DNA of 64,000 nt from Promethearchaeota archaeon. Its GTDB lineage: Archaea > Asgardarchaeota > Lokiarchaeia > Sigyniarchaeales > SOKP01. Each line of letters begins with the position of its first letter. The first letter of the stretch is position 1. Of the stretch, positions 2,008 to 42,223 are shown piece by piece. The DNA is taken from contig JAUVXW010000007.1 in the NCBI GenBank assembly GCA_030603385.1, positions 64,001 to 128,000 on the forward strand. Direction: 5' to 3'. Both the position numbers and the translations under genes were made by a program. The notes under the pieces were generated by a model that was not told the DNA's origin, ran no database searches, and saw only the letters and a program-made list of their open reading frames with translations.

Positions 2008-2907
2008 TCAGCCAAACAAACCTCCAATACCAACTTCTTCAGCATCTTTTTTCTCTTCTTCCTCTTTAGCTTCTTTTTCTTCAACTTTAGTTTCAGGTTC
2101 AGTAGAAACTGGTATTCCCTCTCCAAATATTATCGCATCCAGCGTATTAGCTTCAGATGCAGCTTTCCGAATATATTCTTCAGTCATACTTTCTTCAATA
2201 AAGGGCATTTCAAAGAGAATCGCGAGTGCTTCTCTATACCCCGTAGCGACATCCTGTTTGAATTGGTCTAAATCCATATATAGGACATCTTCTGGTATAA
2301 TTTCTCCATCGCTCCAAGCAAAATAAATTTTAATCAATGACTCTATTGGTGTTATACCAAGTTTTTTCAATACAGCGGCTTGTTTTACATTTACTAAATC
2401 ACCTACTTTATGCGTTCTTGTATCTTCACGAATATGTATCGTGTCATTCATTATTCTTGTAGGGAGTCTTAAAGTCATGTTTAATTCACTAATAACTTGA
2501 CCTGTTGGCAATCCAGTATCTCCAGCAGGTACCCAAATATCTACAGGTGTGATTTCATTTGGTTTTGCAGGAACCATCCATTCATGGTCATGGAAAATCT
2601 CTTTTAATTCTATTAGATCAAGATTCGTAAAAATAAGACTTGATTGACCAGGAATTTGCTCTGCTAATTCATCTAAATTTGACTTTTTTGACTCTTTTTT
2701 GTATTGTTCTATTGCACGAAGTTGTAGAGATTTTTTAGACATACGAAATATCGCTTTCCCCCTTAAAATTTTACGCATTGATTGAATTTGCATATCATTT
2801 ATATGAGAAACTTCTATAACAGCAACATTACTGTAAGTTTTAAATAATTCAATTAAATTATTTACTTCTTCTAATTTCCACTGAGGTATATGTTGTTTTT
2901 TAATCAT
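2008..2907 (-). CDS. rplP0: Ribosomal protein uL10 (P0)
   Basis: IPQWKLEEV start, VPAGDTG insertion domain, acidic tail ending GIGGLFG; operon position. Confidence 0.97.
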   Translation of the reverse strand: MIKKQHIPQWKLEEVNNLIELFKTYSNVAVIEVSHINDMQIQSMRKILRGKAIFRMSKKSLQLRAIEQYKKESKKSNLDELAEQIPGQSSLIFTNLDLIELKEIFHDHEWMVPAKPNEITPVDIWVPAGDTGLPTGQVISELNMTLRLPTRIMNDTIHIREDTRTHKVGDLVNVKQAAVLKKLGITPIESLIKIYFAWSDGEIIPEDVLYMDLDQFKQDVATGYREALAILFEMPFIEESMTEEYIRKAASEANTLDAIIFGEGIPVSTEPETKVEEKEAKEEEEKKDAEEVGIGGLFG

Positions 2908-2911
2908 TTTT

Positions 2912-3640
2912 TCACACCTCTATACTCTTTAAAAAATCTTCAGTTACATTAACTGGTTTTCCCATTGTAGATTTTAAATACATTGATTTAAAGTTATTGA
3001 ACTTATGTGGCATTTGATCTCCAATAAAATTTACTACTGTTTTCATATTTTCAAATAATTTATCAACTTCCATTGATTTCTTTCCTATTTTTATGAAAAT
3101 TATAGGCTGTTTTTTCATTTGCACACGAATTACCTTTTTATACCTATCAAAGGCAACCTTCAAATCATCCGGACTGGAAATTATTCCATAACCCGTAGGA
3201 AAAGGTTTTGGCATTTTACCTAAAGGCCCAAGAAATCTTGCGAGGTAACGAGCGACATCACGCATCATTTTATCTTCTACAACAAAAAACTCATACTTTT
3301 TTGCAAATTTCTTCTTATACTTCTTTTCTTCGTTATTTAATTTAATCAATCCATCTGAATCAAGAGTATCAACACCAATCTTTTTTGCTTCGAGTAATAT
3401 TTCGTCGGAAGCAATCACACATATATTAGGTTTATCTTTTACAATTACTTCATTTGAGAGGATAATTTCTTTATCAATTCTATTTTTTGGATCATTTAGA
3501 TTTACATCTTTTATATTAATGACAAGGTCAATTGACTCATCGAATTTTCTTATTTTATCTTTAAATCCGTCCTTTTTAATTACTGAAAAATCTATTGCTG
3601 CATTTAAAGATCTTCTTAACAATTTATCATCTACTTTCAA
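2912..3640 (-). CDS. rpl1: Ribosomal protein uL1
   Basis: RKFDESIDLVIN, LGPLGKMPKP, YLKSTMG motifs; TTG start. Confidence 0.97.
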   Translation of the reverse strand: MKVDDKLLRRSLNAAIDFSVIKKDGFKDKIRKFDESIDLVINIKDVNLNDPKNRIDKEIILSNEVIVKDKPNICVIASDEILLEAKKIGVDTLDSDGLIKLNNEEKKYKKKFAKKYEFFVVEDKMMRDVARYLARFLGPLGKMPKPFPTGYGIISSPDDLKVAFDRYKKVIRVQMKKQPIIFIKIGKKSMEVDKLFENMKTVVNFIGDQMPHKFNNFKSMYLKSTMGKPVNVTEDFLKSIEV

Positions 3641-3642
3641 TT

Positions 3643-4177
3643 TTATAATTCACCACTGATTTTATCGTCATATTCTCCATTTTCTATTCTTTTTTGAATT
3701 TCTCTGGGATCTTCTCCCTCAACAGTTATTCCAATAGATAACGCAGTTCCTAGGACCGTTTTAACAGCGATCTTAAAATTTTTGTCTAGAAATTTATCTT
3801 TCTTTGCTTCAACAACGTTAATAATCTGCTCAAGTGTGAGATTGCCAATTTTGTCTTCCGAGCTTGCTGGACTTCCTTTTTCTACTCCCGCTTCCTTAAG
3901 TAATAATGAGGCTGTGGAAGGTGTTTCAATAAAAATTTCAAATTGTTTTGTTTCTGTATCACATTCAATTCTGACAGGTACTGTTAAGCCTTTAAATACC
4001 ATTGTTTTTTCATTGATTACGTCAACTACATCTTTGATATTAATACCCGTTGGGCCTACAGCAGGTCCAATAGGTGGCCCTCCTGACGCATTTGAGGTTC
4101 AATCGAAACGATAATTAAAAATAAACACTCCCACCTGTCACAAGGGCTTTAACAATTACTTTTCCTTTTGTACTCAC
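3643..4177 (-). CDS. rpl11: Ribosomal protein uL11, split gene: exon 1 4177-4128, exon 2 4090-3643 (165 aa when joined)
   Basis: GTG at 4177 gives MSTKGKVIVKALVTGG(S); after a 37-nt insert the frame continues ASGGPPIGPAVGPTGINIKDVVDVINEKT into the tracked ORF 3643..4002 (VPV...TPSTASLL...VLGTALSIGITV). Confidence 0.95.
4091..4127 (-). other. Candidate 37-nt bulge-helix-bulge (BHB) mRNA intron in rpl11
   Basis: Insert TGTTTATTTTTAATTATCGTTTCGATTGAACCTCAAA; 4-bp central helix UGGG/CUCA, 3-nt bulges AGU and AAU, intron stem GUUUA/UGAAC; cutting after the 2nd nt of each bulge restores the frame. Confidence 0.85.
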
Positions 4178-4384
4178 ATAGTTTCACTTTTTTCCAATTA
4201 ATTTAGTTTAAGAAATATTCTAAAAGCAAAGAACGCGAAATTAAAAATAGGGTATTTAAATTCAATATCTATGTTATATCGAAACCGCATTAATTTGCGT
4301 CCTAAGTCAATTAAAAATATTATCTTAACTTAGTAAATATGAAAATGAACTAAAATTAAAAAGTTTTATTAAAATGAGAATGAT

Positions 4385-40828: not shown

Positions 40829-42223
40829 ATGGAAAACATACAAAAGTCGTTTGACGTTATTGTGGTTGGAGCTGGTACAGGAGGTACCACTGCTGCGAGG
40901 TTCATTGCTAAAAAAGGTTTAGAGGTATGTTTAATTGATAGAAAACCAAGGGATAGAATAGGGGATAAAATATGTGGCGATGCTGTAGGAAACGAAATTT
41001 TCGGTCTTTTAAACATTAACCACCCTAAAAGTGAGGAACTATCTTGCCATATTAAGGGGATAAAACTATATTCACCAAATCTTAAGAAATGTCTAACTTT
41101 AATTGATCCAAAACAAGCAGGATATATTGTTAATAGATTGGAATTTGGTCAACGATTATTAAACGAAGCTATTGATGTAGGAATAAAACAGTTTTTAGAT
41201 AAAACTATGGCTTTAGATTTAATATATAATAATGGTACTGTTAATGGTTTAAAAGTTAAATTAGAAAATGGAGAAAAAAGTGAATTAAAAGCAAAACTAG
41301 TAATTGATGCTAGTGGTTTTTATTCTCCTATAAGAAAAACTATAAAGAGTTCTCTAATTGAAAAAAATATCTCTAAAGAAGATAGTTTATTATGTTATCG
41401 AGAAATAATTAAATTTTCACCAAAAGATCAAGAAGTACAAGATCCTGAATATATATCAATTATTCTTGATCAAGAAAAGGCTCCAGGAGGATACATATGG
41501 TATTTTCCAAAAAATGAATCCTCGGTTAACATTGGATTAGGAGCTTTTATGGCATACAAAGGAAAAGTAAAAGATTTTTACCAAAGAAATGTGTTTCAAG
41601 AATATATCAAAGCATCAAAATTTGAAACCATTTCTTCTGGTGGTGGTGTGGTTCCAGTAAGAAGACCATTATGGTCTTGTGCCGATAATGGTATTATGTT
41701 TGTCGGGGATTCGGCTTGCCAAGTGAATCCTCTTCATGGAGGTGGAATTGATCCATCAATGAGAGCTGGATACTATGCAGCTAATTCAGCAGTTAGTGCT
41801 ATTGAAAAAGAAGATTATTCAATAAATATGTTATGGGATTATAATCATTCCGTTATGACTAGCTTTGGTGCTGAATTTGCTGCTTTAGATTTACTAAGAA
41901 TAGTTCTTCAACACCTCTCGAATGATGACATAAATTTTGGTTTAGAACGCGATTTACTTAGCGGAGAGGAAATCTTAGAAATATCATCTAAAGGCGGATT
42001 AAACTTATCCTTAGTAAATATGGCAATTAAAGCATTTAAAGGAATTTCCCGTCCAAATTTATTATTAGATTTAAATTATCTTAGAATAAAAATGAATGAA
42101 ATATATAGACTTTATAAAACTTTTCCAGAAAATATAGCTAAATTTCCGGAATGGAAGGAAGATGTTATTGGAATTTATGATAAAATAAAAAGAATGATTG
42201 TTAATACTAAAAAAAGCAAATAA
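40829..42223 (+). CDS. Geranylgeranyl reductase (digeranylgeranylglycerophospholipid reductase family)
   Basis: VVGAGTGG, K.CGDA, APGGYIWYFPK, GDSACQVNPLHGGGI. Confidence 0.9.
   Translation: MENIQKSFDVIVVGAGTGGTTAARFIAKKGLEVCLIDRKPRDRIGDKICGDAVGNEIFGLLNINHPKSEELSCHIKGIKLYSPNLKKCLTLIDPKQAGYIVNRLEFGQRLLNEAIDVGIKQFLDKTMALDLIYNNGTVNGLKVKLENGEKSELKAKLVIDASGFYSPIRKTIKSSLIEKNISKEDSLLCYREIIKFSPKDQEVQDPEYISIILDQEKAPGGYIWYFPKNESSVNIGLGAFMAYKGKVKDFYQRNVFQEYIKASKFETISSGGGVVPVRRPLWSCADNGIMFVGDSACQVNPLHGGGIDPSMRAGYYAANSAVSAIEKEDYSINMLWDYNHSVMTSFGAEFAALDLLRIVLQHLSNDDINFGLERDLLSGEEILEISSKGGLNLSLVNMAIKAFKGISRPNLLLDLNYLRIKMNEIYRLYKTFPENIAKFPEWKEDVIGIYDKIKRMIVNTKKSK

What the first reader, a model, noticed from the sequence alone, without database searches (positions are those of the whole stretch)
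4072..4177. Ribosomal protein uL11 gene interrupted by a 37-nt bulge-helix-bulge intron
Seen in sequence (minus strand): GTG...GTG ACA GGT GGG AG|TGTTTATTTTTAATTATCGTTTCGATTGAACCTCAAA|T GCG TCA GGA GGG CCA CCT ATT GGA CCT. Unspliced, translation stops after 20 aa (TAA at 4117-4115). Removing 4127-4091 gives ...ALVTGGSASGGPPIGPAVGP..., the conserved uL11 N-terminus with no gap, and a 165-aa protein. The junctions fold as a BHB: central 4-bp helix UGGG/CUCA, 3-nt bulges AG^U and AA^U, intron stem GUUUA/UGAAC (with inner hairpin AUCG-UUU-CGAU), and an imperfect exon stem UGAC/GUCA plus CCCUU/GAGGG. Established: archaeal tRNA-splicing endonuclease EndA cuts after the 2nd nucleotide of each bulge and RtcB ligates. 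Those positions are exactly the ones that restore the frame here. Archaeal mRNA introns are rare (cbf5 in Crenarchaeota is the classic case), and I know of none described in an Asgard ribosomal-protein gene. Inference: EndA/RtcB-dependent mRNA splicing operates in this lineage, and gene callers would mis-annotate such genes as truncated. Caveat: the exon-side helix is relaxed, with a G-G mismatch next to the 3' bulge.
Basis: partly seen in the sequence, partly recalled or inferred. Interest (0 to 1): 0.95.

Follow-up and report, generated by a model that had tools for sequence, protein, structure and literature searches.

The report
tRNA-type mini-intron splits Asgard uL11 gene
The only gene for ribosomal protein uL11 in this Loki-type Asgard archaeon is broken by a 37-base insert shaped like an archaeal tRNA intron, so its mRNA almost certainly has to be cut and rejoined by the tRNA-splicing enzymes. 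Papers I could find document this inside a coding sequence for one archaeal gene only (cbf5).

Summary
On the minus strand, rpl11 runs as exon 1 (4177-4128), a 37-nt insert (4127-4091) and exon 2 (4090-3643). Unspliced, it stops after 20 codons. Removing the insert gives a 165-aa uL11 with the invariant N-terminus. It is the only uL11 gene in the genome.

The insert is not an artefact: six independent public contigs carry it letter for letter.

Fifteen distinct relatives carry an insert at the same site. In all of them the 4-bp central helix pairs, including a U-A to A-U double change. Three more insert sites lie within the next 17 codons in other relatives. At every site the canonical bulge-helix-bulge cut positions restore the same protein. 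dN/dS of the spliced frame is 0.04-0.12.

The genome has two EndA paralogues and RtcB. It also has further such introns, for example two in the proteasome alpha gene.

Splicing of this intron in RNA is not shown. A metatranscriptome contig skips exactly these 37 nt, but a DNA scaffold from a 99.4% identical strain lacks the insert too.

I found no paper on such introns in Asgard protein genes. This scan has noted the same thing many times on other DNA, uL11 included.

Verdict: a real EndA-type mRNA intron (about 0.85), and a new member of a known kind.

The parts
4128..4177 (-). rpl11 (uL11) exon 1: GTG start at 4177-4175, 16 codons plus the first two bases (AG) of a Ser codon
   Evidence: It aligns base for base with the start of intron-less rpl11 in the same genus.
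4091..4127 (-). 37-nt BHB-type intron in phase 2. It carries the in-frame TAA (4117-4115) and shifts the frame by +1.
   Evidence: Six independent public contigs carry it identically. A 99.4% identical strain lacks exactly these 37 nt.
3643..4090 (-). rpl11 exon 2: the T of the split Ser codon, 148 codons, then stop TAA at 3645-3643
   Evidence: Pfam Ribosomal_L11_N and Ribosomal_L11. It is the only uL11 match in the genome.
4130..4133 (-). 5' strand of the central 4-bp helix (UGGG, exon 1)
   Evidence: It pairs with 4093-4096. The helix is paired in all 15 distinct orthologous inserts, with a U-A to A-U double change in 5 of them. RNAalifold recovers it.
4093..4096 (-). 3' strand of the central 4-bp helix (CUCA, near the intron's 3' end)
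4127..4129 (-). 5' bulge A4129 G4128 ^ U4127. The predicted cut is after the second base.
   Evidence: Cutting here and in the 3' bulge restores the frame. The cut rule is from PMC2738675.
4090..4092 (-). 3' bulge A4092 A4091 ^ U4090. The predicted cut is after the second base.
4097..4126 (-). Intron-side helix GUUUA (4126-4122) with UGAAC (4101-4097), enclosing the apical hairpin AUCG-UUU-CGAU (4112-4102)
   Evidence: Four of the five pairs show changes on both sides among orthologues.
4077..4147 (-). Span of the whole folded element. Its outer part is the relaxed exon-exon helix: G4135-C4088, UGAC 4140-4137 with GUCA 4087-4084, GCCCUU 4147-4142 with GAGGGC 4082-4077. G4134-G4089 and G4141-G4083 are mismatches and A4136 is bulged.
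   Evidence: Most of these pairs never vary because they are coding sequence.
2912..3640 (-). rpl1 (uL1), starting 3 nt after the rpl11 stop (operon context)
   Evidence: Pfam Ribosomal_L1.
2008..2907 (-). rpl10/P0 (uL10), the next gene of the operon
   Evidence: Pfam Ribosomal_L10 and RL10P_insert.
4020..4326 (-). Roughly 300-nt polymorphic cassette covering the promoter region, exon 1 and the intron sites. It differs strongly between the window and an otherwise 99.4% identical strain, and it carries different introns (site A here, site C there).
   Evidence: 20 mismatches in 131 nt at 4196-4326, 9 in the 52 aligned nt at 4039-4090 and 3 more at 4000-4038, against 9 in 1474 and 15 in 1895 in the two long blocks either side. 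The sequence of L122 is shown.

Best explanation
The 37 nt at 4127-4091 are a bulge-helix-bulge (BHB) intron inside the coding sequence of the single-copy uL11 gene.

In the pre-mRNA, the last bases of exon 1 (UGGG) pair with CUCA near the 3' end of the intron to form the 4-bp central helix. This leaves two 3-nt bulges on opposite strands, AG^U and AA^U. An intron hairpin lies on one side and a relaxed exon-exon helix on the other.

The two-subunit splicing endonuclease EndA cuts after the second base of each bulge, and RtcB joins the exons to make ...GGU GGG AG|U GCG UCA.... Only this spliced mRNA encodes the 165-aa uL11. Unspliced mRNA stops after 20 codons.

Shown here: the anatomy, its conservation and covariation, frame restoration, purifying selection on the spliced frame, and the presence of the enzymes and of sister introns. 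Inferred: that EndA and RtcB are the enzymes, and that excision occurs in vivo.
For: 1. Anatomy and frame.

2. Single copy. There is one uL11 match in a 94%-complete genome.

3. Real DNA. Six contigs from ENA, JGI and four Logan runs carry the identical insert and are at least 99% identical over 341 nt.

4. Same-site inserts. Fifteen distinct sequences carry a 28-37 nt insert at this site. The central helix pairs in all of them, as UGGG/CUCA, UGGG/CCCG, UGGG/CCCA, AGGG/CUCU or AGGG/CCCU. Overall 91% of cells are paired, against 37-58% when the partners are slid by 1-3 columns. No shuffle out of 500 reached the observed covariation score. RNAalifold finds the same helix unaided.

5. Other sites. 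Three further insert sites lie in codons 24-34 of relatives' rpl11: site B (31-36 nt), site D (28-30 nt) and site C (28 nt). In all 48 site-instances scored, the best-scoring register is the canonical one. Site D is a perfect hBHBh'. Cutting there gives the same invariant peptide ALVTGGSASGGPPIGP.VGPTGINIKDV in every intron-bearing allele whose gene start was read correctly.

6. Selection. dN/dS of the spliced frame is 0.04-0.12, the same as for intron-less alleles.

7. Empty site. A strain with 99.4% identical flanks has GGTGGGAG directly joined to TGCGTCAGG in its DNA. The insertion/deletion boundaries therefore equal the predicted cut sites.

8. Enzymes. There are two EndA paralogues of 198 and 200 aa and one RtcB. 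Asgard EndA is reported as (alpha-beta)2 with the L1 loop, the broad-specificity type that cuts relaxed BHBs (PMC5829648).

9. Same genome. The proteasome alpha gene is split by 32-nt and 29-nt BHB inserts, and its pieces match Pfam PF00227 positions 1-60, 61-96 and 99-189. iorB and a TFS-like gene also carry BHB inserts.
Against: There is no RNA-level proof for this intron. The RNA contig that skips the 37 nt comes from a different allele, about 96% identical. An intron-less junction also exists as DNA in a near-identical strain, so the skip may simply be an intron-less gene. A 26-mer of the spliced junction joined to this allele's own exon 2 was not found in JGI metagenome contigs.

The exon-side helix is weak. 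A G-G mismatch abuts the 3' bulge and only one or two pairs follow before a bulged base. The motif is therefore relaxed, not strict.

The window's own minimum-free-energy fold prefers a shifted register, by about 5 kcal/mol.

The substrate range of this EndA is inferred from the literature, not tested.
Confidence: 0.85

Rival explanations
1. The insert-bearing allele is a broken, untranslated copy. The population gets by on intron-less alleles, or uL11 is dispensable, and the BHB-like shape has no function.
For: Intron-less alleles do circulate in near-identical strains. No spliced RNA of this allele was seen. In bacteria uL11 can be deleted (my own knowledge).
Against: This is the only uL11 gene in the genome. 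The same allele turns up in six independent assemblies. The exon differences between those contigs and the window that I inspected (ACA/ACC, CCT/CCC) are synonymous in the spliced frame. Thirty-two of 80 distinct alleles in the group carry such inserts, with dN/dS of 0.04-0.12 measured across both exons. The pairing is kept by compensatory change, which a dead insert would not do.
Confidence: 0.06
2. The insert is removed from the RNA, but not by EndA and RtcB. Another nuclease and ligase, or self-cleavage, would do it.
For: The exon-side helix is relaxed. No enzyme assay was possible.
Against: The geometry is exactly the EndA substrate at four sites: a 4-bp helix, two 3-nt bulges, and a cut after base 2. 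At 28-37 nt the inserts are too small for group I or II ribozymes, and no Rfam family matches. EndA alpha/beta and RtcB are present.
Confidence: 0.04
3. Translational recoding: ribosomes hop over the 37 nt, as in phage T4 gene 60, without any RNA cutting.
For: The gap is short and structured, and a stop codon lies four codons downstream of the last full exon-1 codon.
Against: The join falls inside a codon (AG|U). There is no matching take-off and landing codon: GGG is followed by AGU, and the 3' end of the gap is CUCAAA. Bypassing does not explain 4-bp-helix covariation with 3-nt bulges at four different sites. It also does not explain DNA alleles that lack exactly these bases.
Confidence: 0.02
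4. Assembly or binning artefact: the 37 nt are not in the organism's DNA.
For: The window comes from a metagenome-assembled genome with 7% contamination.
Against: The identical insert and flanks appear in contigs from ENA ERZ27251131, JGI 3300024432 and four separate Logan runs. Orthologous inserts appear in 14 other distinct sequences.
Confidence: 0.005

Closest known systems
cbf5 (pseudouridine synthase) pre-mRNA intron of Crenarchaeota (Watanabe 2002; Yoshinari 2006; Yokobori 2009, PMC2738675)
   Same: A short BHB intron lies inside an archaeal coding sequence. The motif is mostly unconventional or relaxed and is cut between the second and third bulge residues by a hetero-oligomeric endonuclease. 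The gene is unreadable unless spliced, and the intron has been lost in some lineages.
   Different: The gene, phylum and scale all differ. cbf5 has one site, with gain in an ancestor and a few losses. rpl11 here has four sites within 17 codons and up to three introns per gene. Presence and absence differ between strains that are 99.4% identical. For cbf5, splicing was shown by cDNA and in vitro cleavage. Here it was not.
BHB intron in the 5' UTR of Haloferax volcanii HVO_1309 (PMC7714728)
   Same: An mRNA is an EndA substrate outside tRNA and rRNA. That paper states that cbf5 was the only other mRNA case known in 2020.
   Different: That intron lies in an untranslated leader of a euryarchaeon with the alpha'2-type enzyme. 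This one lies in the coding sequence and breaks the frame.
[quoted passage not shown]
   Same: The motif, the predicted enzymes and the size range (about 15-60 nt) are the same. In both cases the exon supplies half of the motif. Introns show repeated gains at many positions in Asgard lineages, and the EndA has a two-paralogue architecture.
   Different: The host molecule here is an mRNA. The exon half of the motif must also encode protein, so pairing is adjusted through synonymous sites. Neither paper reports Asgard protein-gene introns. The preprint never mentions mRNA, and PMC5829648 cites pre-mRNA BHB motifs only from earlier cbf5 work.
HAC1/XBP1 unconventional mRNA splicing in eukaryotes (IRE1 cleavage, ligation by Trl1 or RtcB)
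   Same: A short intron inside an mRNA is removed without a spliceosome. It is cut by a protein endonuclease at paired stem-loops and joined by the tRNA ligase. Splicing changes the reading frame (my own knowledge; RtcB-HAC1 is listed as reference 5 of PMC5829648).
   Different: The nuclease (IRE1, not the EndA/TSEN family) and the motif differ. That system is regulated by stress, and nothing here shows regulation.
Programmed translational bypassing (phage T4 gene 60)
   Same: A short structured gap in a coding sequence is absent from the protein.
   Different: That mechanism removes no RNA and needs matched take-off and landing codons. These features were tested here and not met.

Membership tests
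Archaeal BHB (splicing-endonuclease) intron | [quoted passage not shown] | tested here: met
   UGGG/CUCA with bulges AGU and AAU. The central helix is kept in all 15 distinct orthologous inserts, with compensatory change. RNAalifold recovers it.
Archaeal BHB (splicing-endonuclease) intron | Flanking helices on both sides (strict hBHBh') | tested here: inconclusive
   The intron-side helix is 5 bp and co-varies. The exon-side helix begins with a G-G mismatch, then one or two pairs, a bulged base and UGAC/GUCA. This makes it a relaxed form. Sites B and D in relatives have a strong exon-side helix, and site D is a strict hBHBh' throughout.
Archaeal BHB (splicing-endonuclease) intron | Cutting after the second base of each bulge yields the functional product | tested here: met
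   It restores the frame and the invariant uL11 N-terminus, giving 165 aa. An intron-less DNA allele has exactly this junction.
Archaeal BHB (splicing-endonuclease) intron | The host encodes EndA able to cut relaxed motifs, plus the RtcB ligase | tested here: met
   Two PF01974 matches, in ORFs of 198 and 200 aa, and one RtcB. Broad specificity is taken from PMC5829648 and was not measured.
Archaeal BHB (splicing-endonuclease) intron | The intron is absent from mature RNA, and a spliced junction or circular intron is detectable | tested here: inconclusive
   An RNA-library contig skips exactly 37 nt. It is a different allele, and the joined form also exists as DNA. The allele-specific junction was not found in JGI contigs.
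Group I, group II or spliceosomal intron | A ribozyme core or GU-AG/branch-site signals, and a size of hundreds of bases | tested here: not met
   The insert is 37 nt. No Rfam family matched anywhere in the window.
Programmed ribosomal bypass (T4 gene 60 type) | Identical take-off and landing codons flank the gap, with a stop right after take-off | tested here: not met
   The join lies within a codon and there are no matching codons at the two ends.

The most novel reading that the evidence does not exclude
The first 100 nt of rpl11 in this Asgard genus may be a hotspot of actively turning-over endonuclease-type introns. There are four sites, up to three introns per gene, and about 33 state changes on an 80-allele tree. 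A cassette of roughly 300 nt that carries different introns has been swapped between strains that are 99.4% identical.

This would mean that BHB introns in mRNAs are still being gained, lost and exchanged, by recombination with other alleles or with spliced RNA or cDNA. It would also mean that splicing of the first cistron may gate expression of the rpl11-rpl1-rpl10-rpl12 operon, tying ribosome output to EndA/RtcB capacity.
Probability: 0.25. Interest if true: 0.9.

Novelty: new member of a known kind. Interest (0 to 1): 0.8.

Why it matters
In the papers I could search, protein-coding introns removed by the tRNA-splicing machinery are documented for one archaeal gene (cbf5), plus one 5' UTR.

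Here an essential ribosomal protein gene of an Asgard archaeon, a close relative of eukaryotes, depends on such splicing. It does so together with other core genes in the same genome, the proteasome alpha gene among them. That makes spliceosome-independent mRNA splicing a routine part of gene expression in this lineage.

It also shows that standard gene callers truncate or mis-start these genes in public records, giving 119, 128 and 146 aa instead of 165. The 146-aa call starts inside an intron. This distorts gene-content and completeness estimates for Asgard genomes.

The strain-level presence and absence of these introns offers a rare natural system for studying how introns enter and leave protein genes.

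Tried and rejected
**RNA evidence.** The look-up of sequencing runs and read laying gave one RNA-library contig (run X1, 2415 nt, depth 562) that joins 4088 to 4126, with two ambiguous bases. This equals the predicted splice. I first read it as splicing and then rejected it as proof, for three reasons:
- The contig differs from the window at 24 places. Twelve listed differences lie at 4006-4057, and four unlisted ones probably lie within 31 nt of the joint.
- A DNA scaffold (L122) with 99.4% identical flanks has the same intron-less junction.
- Intron states differ even between near-identical alleles.

Runs X2 to X4 did not cover 4051-4320 at all, which says nothing either way.

**Junction search.** An exact search for a 26-mer of the spliced junction joined to this allele's exon 2 found nothing in JGI metagenome contigs.

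**Look-ups by product.** The window's 119-aa truncated product is not on record. None of the intron-bearing relatives' spliced proteins is identical to any of the 120 listed homologues. I could therefore pair no RNA contig with an intron-bearing DNA.

**Genome-wide scan.** The BHB scan with ORF-merging filters was not discriminating. For example, it gave 769 hits against 664 expected at random positions, because adjacent same-strand genes mimic split genes. A paralogue-across-junction test was also noisy, and only a few hand-checked cases were kept.

**Other checks.** Rfam and tRNA scans of the window found nothing.

**Ideas not tested.** Two ideas from earlier notes were left untested: that the junction fold mimics the uL1 binding site, and that splicing gates the operon.

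**Rejected readings.** I rejected translational bypass, a ribozyme intron, a pseudogene and an assembly artefact (see the rival explanations).

Full report
**1. What is there**

On the minus strand the window carries the usual archaeal operon: rpl11 (3643-4177), rpl1 (2912-3640) and rpl10/P0 (2008-2907). rpl11 does not read through. From GTG 4177 the frame gives 20 codons and stops at TAA 4117-4115. The rest of the protein lies in another frame from 4090 on, and it matches Pfam Ribosomal_L11_N (positions 10-58 of 58) and Ribosomal_L11. Taking out 4127-4091 (37 nt) joins AG|T into a Ser codon. The result is a 165-aa uL11 beginning VSTKGKVIVKALVTGGSASGGPPIGPAVGPTGINIK.

**2. Is it real DNA, and is it the only copy?**

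The genome (3.89 Mb, 58 contigs, 94% complete) has a single uL11 match. I looked up contigs that encode the exact upstream 62-aa protein. This returned six independent contigs that carry the identical 37 nt in flanks at least 99% identical: ENA ERZ27251131, JGI 3300024432 and Logan assemblies of four runs. Public gene calls on those contigs give a 119-aa L11, as an ORF finder does here. An assembly artefact is excluded as far as assemblies can show.

**3. Who is it?**

The closest genome records are metagenome-assembled genomes named Promethearchaeota or Promethearchaeia, the Lokiarchaeia-type Asgard archaea.

**4. Comparative anatomy**

I aligned rpl11 from 110 loci to an intron-less allele of the same genus. 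Among 80 distinct spliced coding sequences, 32 carry at least one insert. The inserts fall at four sites within codons 17-34:

| Site | Position in the peptide | Insert length | Alleles |
|---|---|---|---|
| A (this one) | after GG, inside the Ser codon | 28-37 nt | 13 |
| B | inside PPI\|GP | 31-36 nt | 11 |
| D | inside AV\|GP | 28-30 nt | 6 |
| C | inside the Asn codon of GIN\|I | 28 nt | 10 |

Combinations A+B, A+C, A+D and A+B+C occur. The 15 genomes I sampled from other families of the order all give one open frame across the whole match. The six of them that I aligned showed no such insert.

For each of the 48 site-instances I scored every register within 6 nt either way. In every case the best register is the canonical one: a 4-bp helix between the exon-1 end and the intron's 3' end, flanked by two 3-nt bulges. 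Cutting after the second bulge base restores the same peptide, ALVTGGSASGGPPIGP.VGPTGINIKDV, in every intron-bearing allele whose gene start was read correctly. Site D is a textbook hBHBh'. Its 6-bp exon helix is made from the two Gly-Pro codon pairs (GGACC/GGUCC).

**5. Covariation at site A**

I counted pairs on 15 distinct sequences (alignment A1).
- The central helix is paired in all of them. It occurs as UGGG/CUCA, UGGG/CCCG, UGGG/CCCA, AGGG/CUCU and AGGG/CCCU, which includes a U-A to A-U double change in five sequences.
- Four of the five intron-helix pairs show changes on both sides.
- Overall 91% of cells pair, against 37-58% when partners are slid by 1-3 columns.
- No shuffle out of 500 reached the observed score.

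These sequences are related, so the shuffle count is not a probability. The slid controls are the fairer comparison.

RNAalifold, given no structure, predicts the same central helix and the exon-exon stems. In the window alone, the minimum-free-energy fold (-26.5 kcal/mol, z = -3.2) uses a register shifted by three bases, and the BHB-constrained fold is -21.3. This is the expected penalty for two bulges that the enzyme holds open.

Across the whole genome, a looser version of this geometry occurs at 0.12% of position/length pairs. Finding it exactly where the protein alignment demands, at four sites, is therefore not chance.

**6. Is the gene alive?**

dN/dS between the window's spliced frame and other intron-bearing alleles is 0.04-0.12. 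This is the same as against intron-less alleles (0.06-0.08), although synonymous sites are near saturation. Exon 1 is conserved as protein. Synonymous exon sites change together with intron content. For example, GGT ATT AAT in intron-less alleles becomes GGC ATA AAY in site-C hosts, which builds the GCAU central helix.

**7. The machinery, and sister introns in the same genome**

There are two PF01974 (EndA) matches, in ORFs of 198 and 200 aa. One keeps a Tyr...His...Lys pattern and the other lacks the His. That reading rests on my inspection and on my memory of the family. There is also one RtcB. Published work puts Asgard EndA in the (alpha-beta)2 class with the L1 loop, the class that cuts relaxed motifs (PMC5829648; bioRxiv 10.64898/2026.10.13.758758).

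My own genome-wide scan was too noisy to count introns, but individual cases hold.
- Proteasome alpha gene (G000:C17): split by 32-nt and 29-nt BHB inserts. The three pieces match Pfam PF00227 at positions 1-60, 61-96 and 99-189.
- iorB (C46:6068): a 31-nt insert.
- A TFS-like gene (C4:232726): a 29-nt insert.

**8. RNA evidence, and why I do not count it**

One contig of a metatranscriptome run (X1, 2415 nt, depth 562) starts at 4201, about 20 nt downstream of a TATA-like run. It then skips exactly the 37 nt. It is another allele, about 96% identical, with differences clustered just 3' of the junction.

I then found a DNA scaffold, L122 from an ENA 'METAG' assembly, that encodes the identical uL1 protein. 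It is 99.4% identical to the window on both sides. It has GGTGGGAG joined directly to TGCGTCAGG, and it carries a 28-nt site-C intron instead. The joined form therefore exists as DNA, and the RNA contig may simply come from an intron-less gene. A search for this allele's own spliced junction in JGI contigs found nothing. Splicing of this intron in vivo remains inferred.

**9. What L122 does show**

First, the insertion/deletion has exactly the boundaries that the BHB cut sites predict. This is what intron loss or gain through an RNA intermediate would give, and it would be an odd coincidence otherwise.

Second, the two strains differ by a cassette of roughly 300 nt (4020-4326). The cassette covers the promoter region, exon 1 and the intron sites, and it is 15-20% diverged over much of its length (exon 1 itself differs little) within 99.4% identical flanks.

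Third, on a tree built from the 3' part of the gene only, intron states need at least 11 (A), 10 (B), 9 (C) and 3 (D) changes over 80 alleles. Pairs that are 95-97.5% identical downstream differ in intron content and are only 81-93% identical in the first 115 nt. The gene is short and the tree is weak, so these counts mix true gain and loss with recombination. Either way, turnover is fast.

**10. Literature and earlier notes**

Searches for BHB introns in Asgard protein genes found none. In the papers I found, cbf5 is the one coding-sequence case, and HVO_1309 adds a 5' UTR case. The 2026 Asgard preprint treats tRNA genes only.

This scan has noted the same phenomenon many times on other DNA: 715 notes in at least 117 genomes. 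That includes uL11 inserts at sites I identify as A, B and C, and other genes in this same genome. I used those notes as leads only.

**11. Verdict**

This is a genuine endonuclease-type intron in an essential mRNA (confidence 0.85). It is a new member of the cbf5-type kind, in a new gene and a new phylum. It is unusual for its multiplicity and its strain-level turnover. The missing piece is direct RNA or enzymatic proof.

Noticed in passing
L117:1194-1225 and L117:1338-1366 (G000:C17:41993-42024 and 42137-42165, + strand): The proteasome alpha subunit gene of the same genome is split by 32-nt and 29-nt BHB-shaped inserts. The three pieces match Pfam Proteasome at positions 1-60, 61-96 and 99-189.
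   Followed up: partly
L115:1069-1099 (G000:C46:6068-6098, +) and L116:1199-1227 (G000:C4:232698-232726, -): iorB (...ERVFGSE|MHGLAQRE...) carries a 31-nt BHB-shaped insert. A TFS-like zinc-ribbon gene carries a 29-nt one. Its spliced peptide aligns without a gap across the junction to a paralogue at 69% identity.
   Followed up: partly
window 4020-4326, compared with L122:1825-2110: A cassette of roughly 300 nt around the rpl11 promoter and 5' end is 15-20% diverged over much of its length (exon 1 itself differs little) between two strains whose flanks are 99.4% identical. It carries different introns (site A here, site C there), which looks like allele replacement by recombination.
   Followed up: partly
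window 4261-4287 (minus strand), and the same place in most related loci: A conserved element with an inverted repeat, GGTTTC(A/G)ATAT...ATATTGAA, lies about 85-110 nt upstream of the rpl11 start across the genus. It may be an operator or another regulatory site.
   Followed up: no
Apical loops of the rpl11 introns at sites A, C and D, e.g. window 4102-4112: Inserts at different sites share a TTTCGA(T/A)T-like apex (A: ATCGTTTCGATT; C: TATTTCGATTTTCG; D: CATTTCGAATT). The introns of the proteasome, iorB and TFS genes do not have it. The site-A insert also appears better conserved than synonymous exon sites: by eye about 82% identical to L061's, while dS is saturated. This may mean shared descent or movement of introns within the gene.
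   Followed up: no
P0013 and P0016 (146 aa); L120 and L121; L122:2112-2498; L130-L135: Public gene calls for these rpl11 genes are truncated or mis-started, at 119, 128 and 146 aa. The 146-aa proteins begin MKFGKGPAVGP, so the caller started inside the site-B intron.
   Followed up: yes
L123, L124, L129 (all start 381 nt before rpl1); L136-L139 (end at window 4137, 4229, 4325, 4343): Many public contigs of this population break at the edges of the polymorphic cassette or at single-base variants inside it (4023/4024). Several rpl11 5' alleles therefore coexist in the sampled sediments.
   Followed up: no
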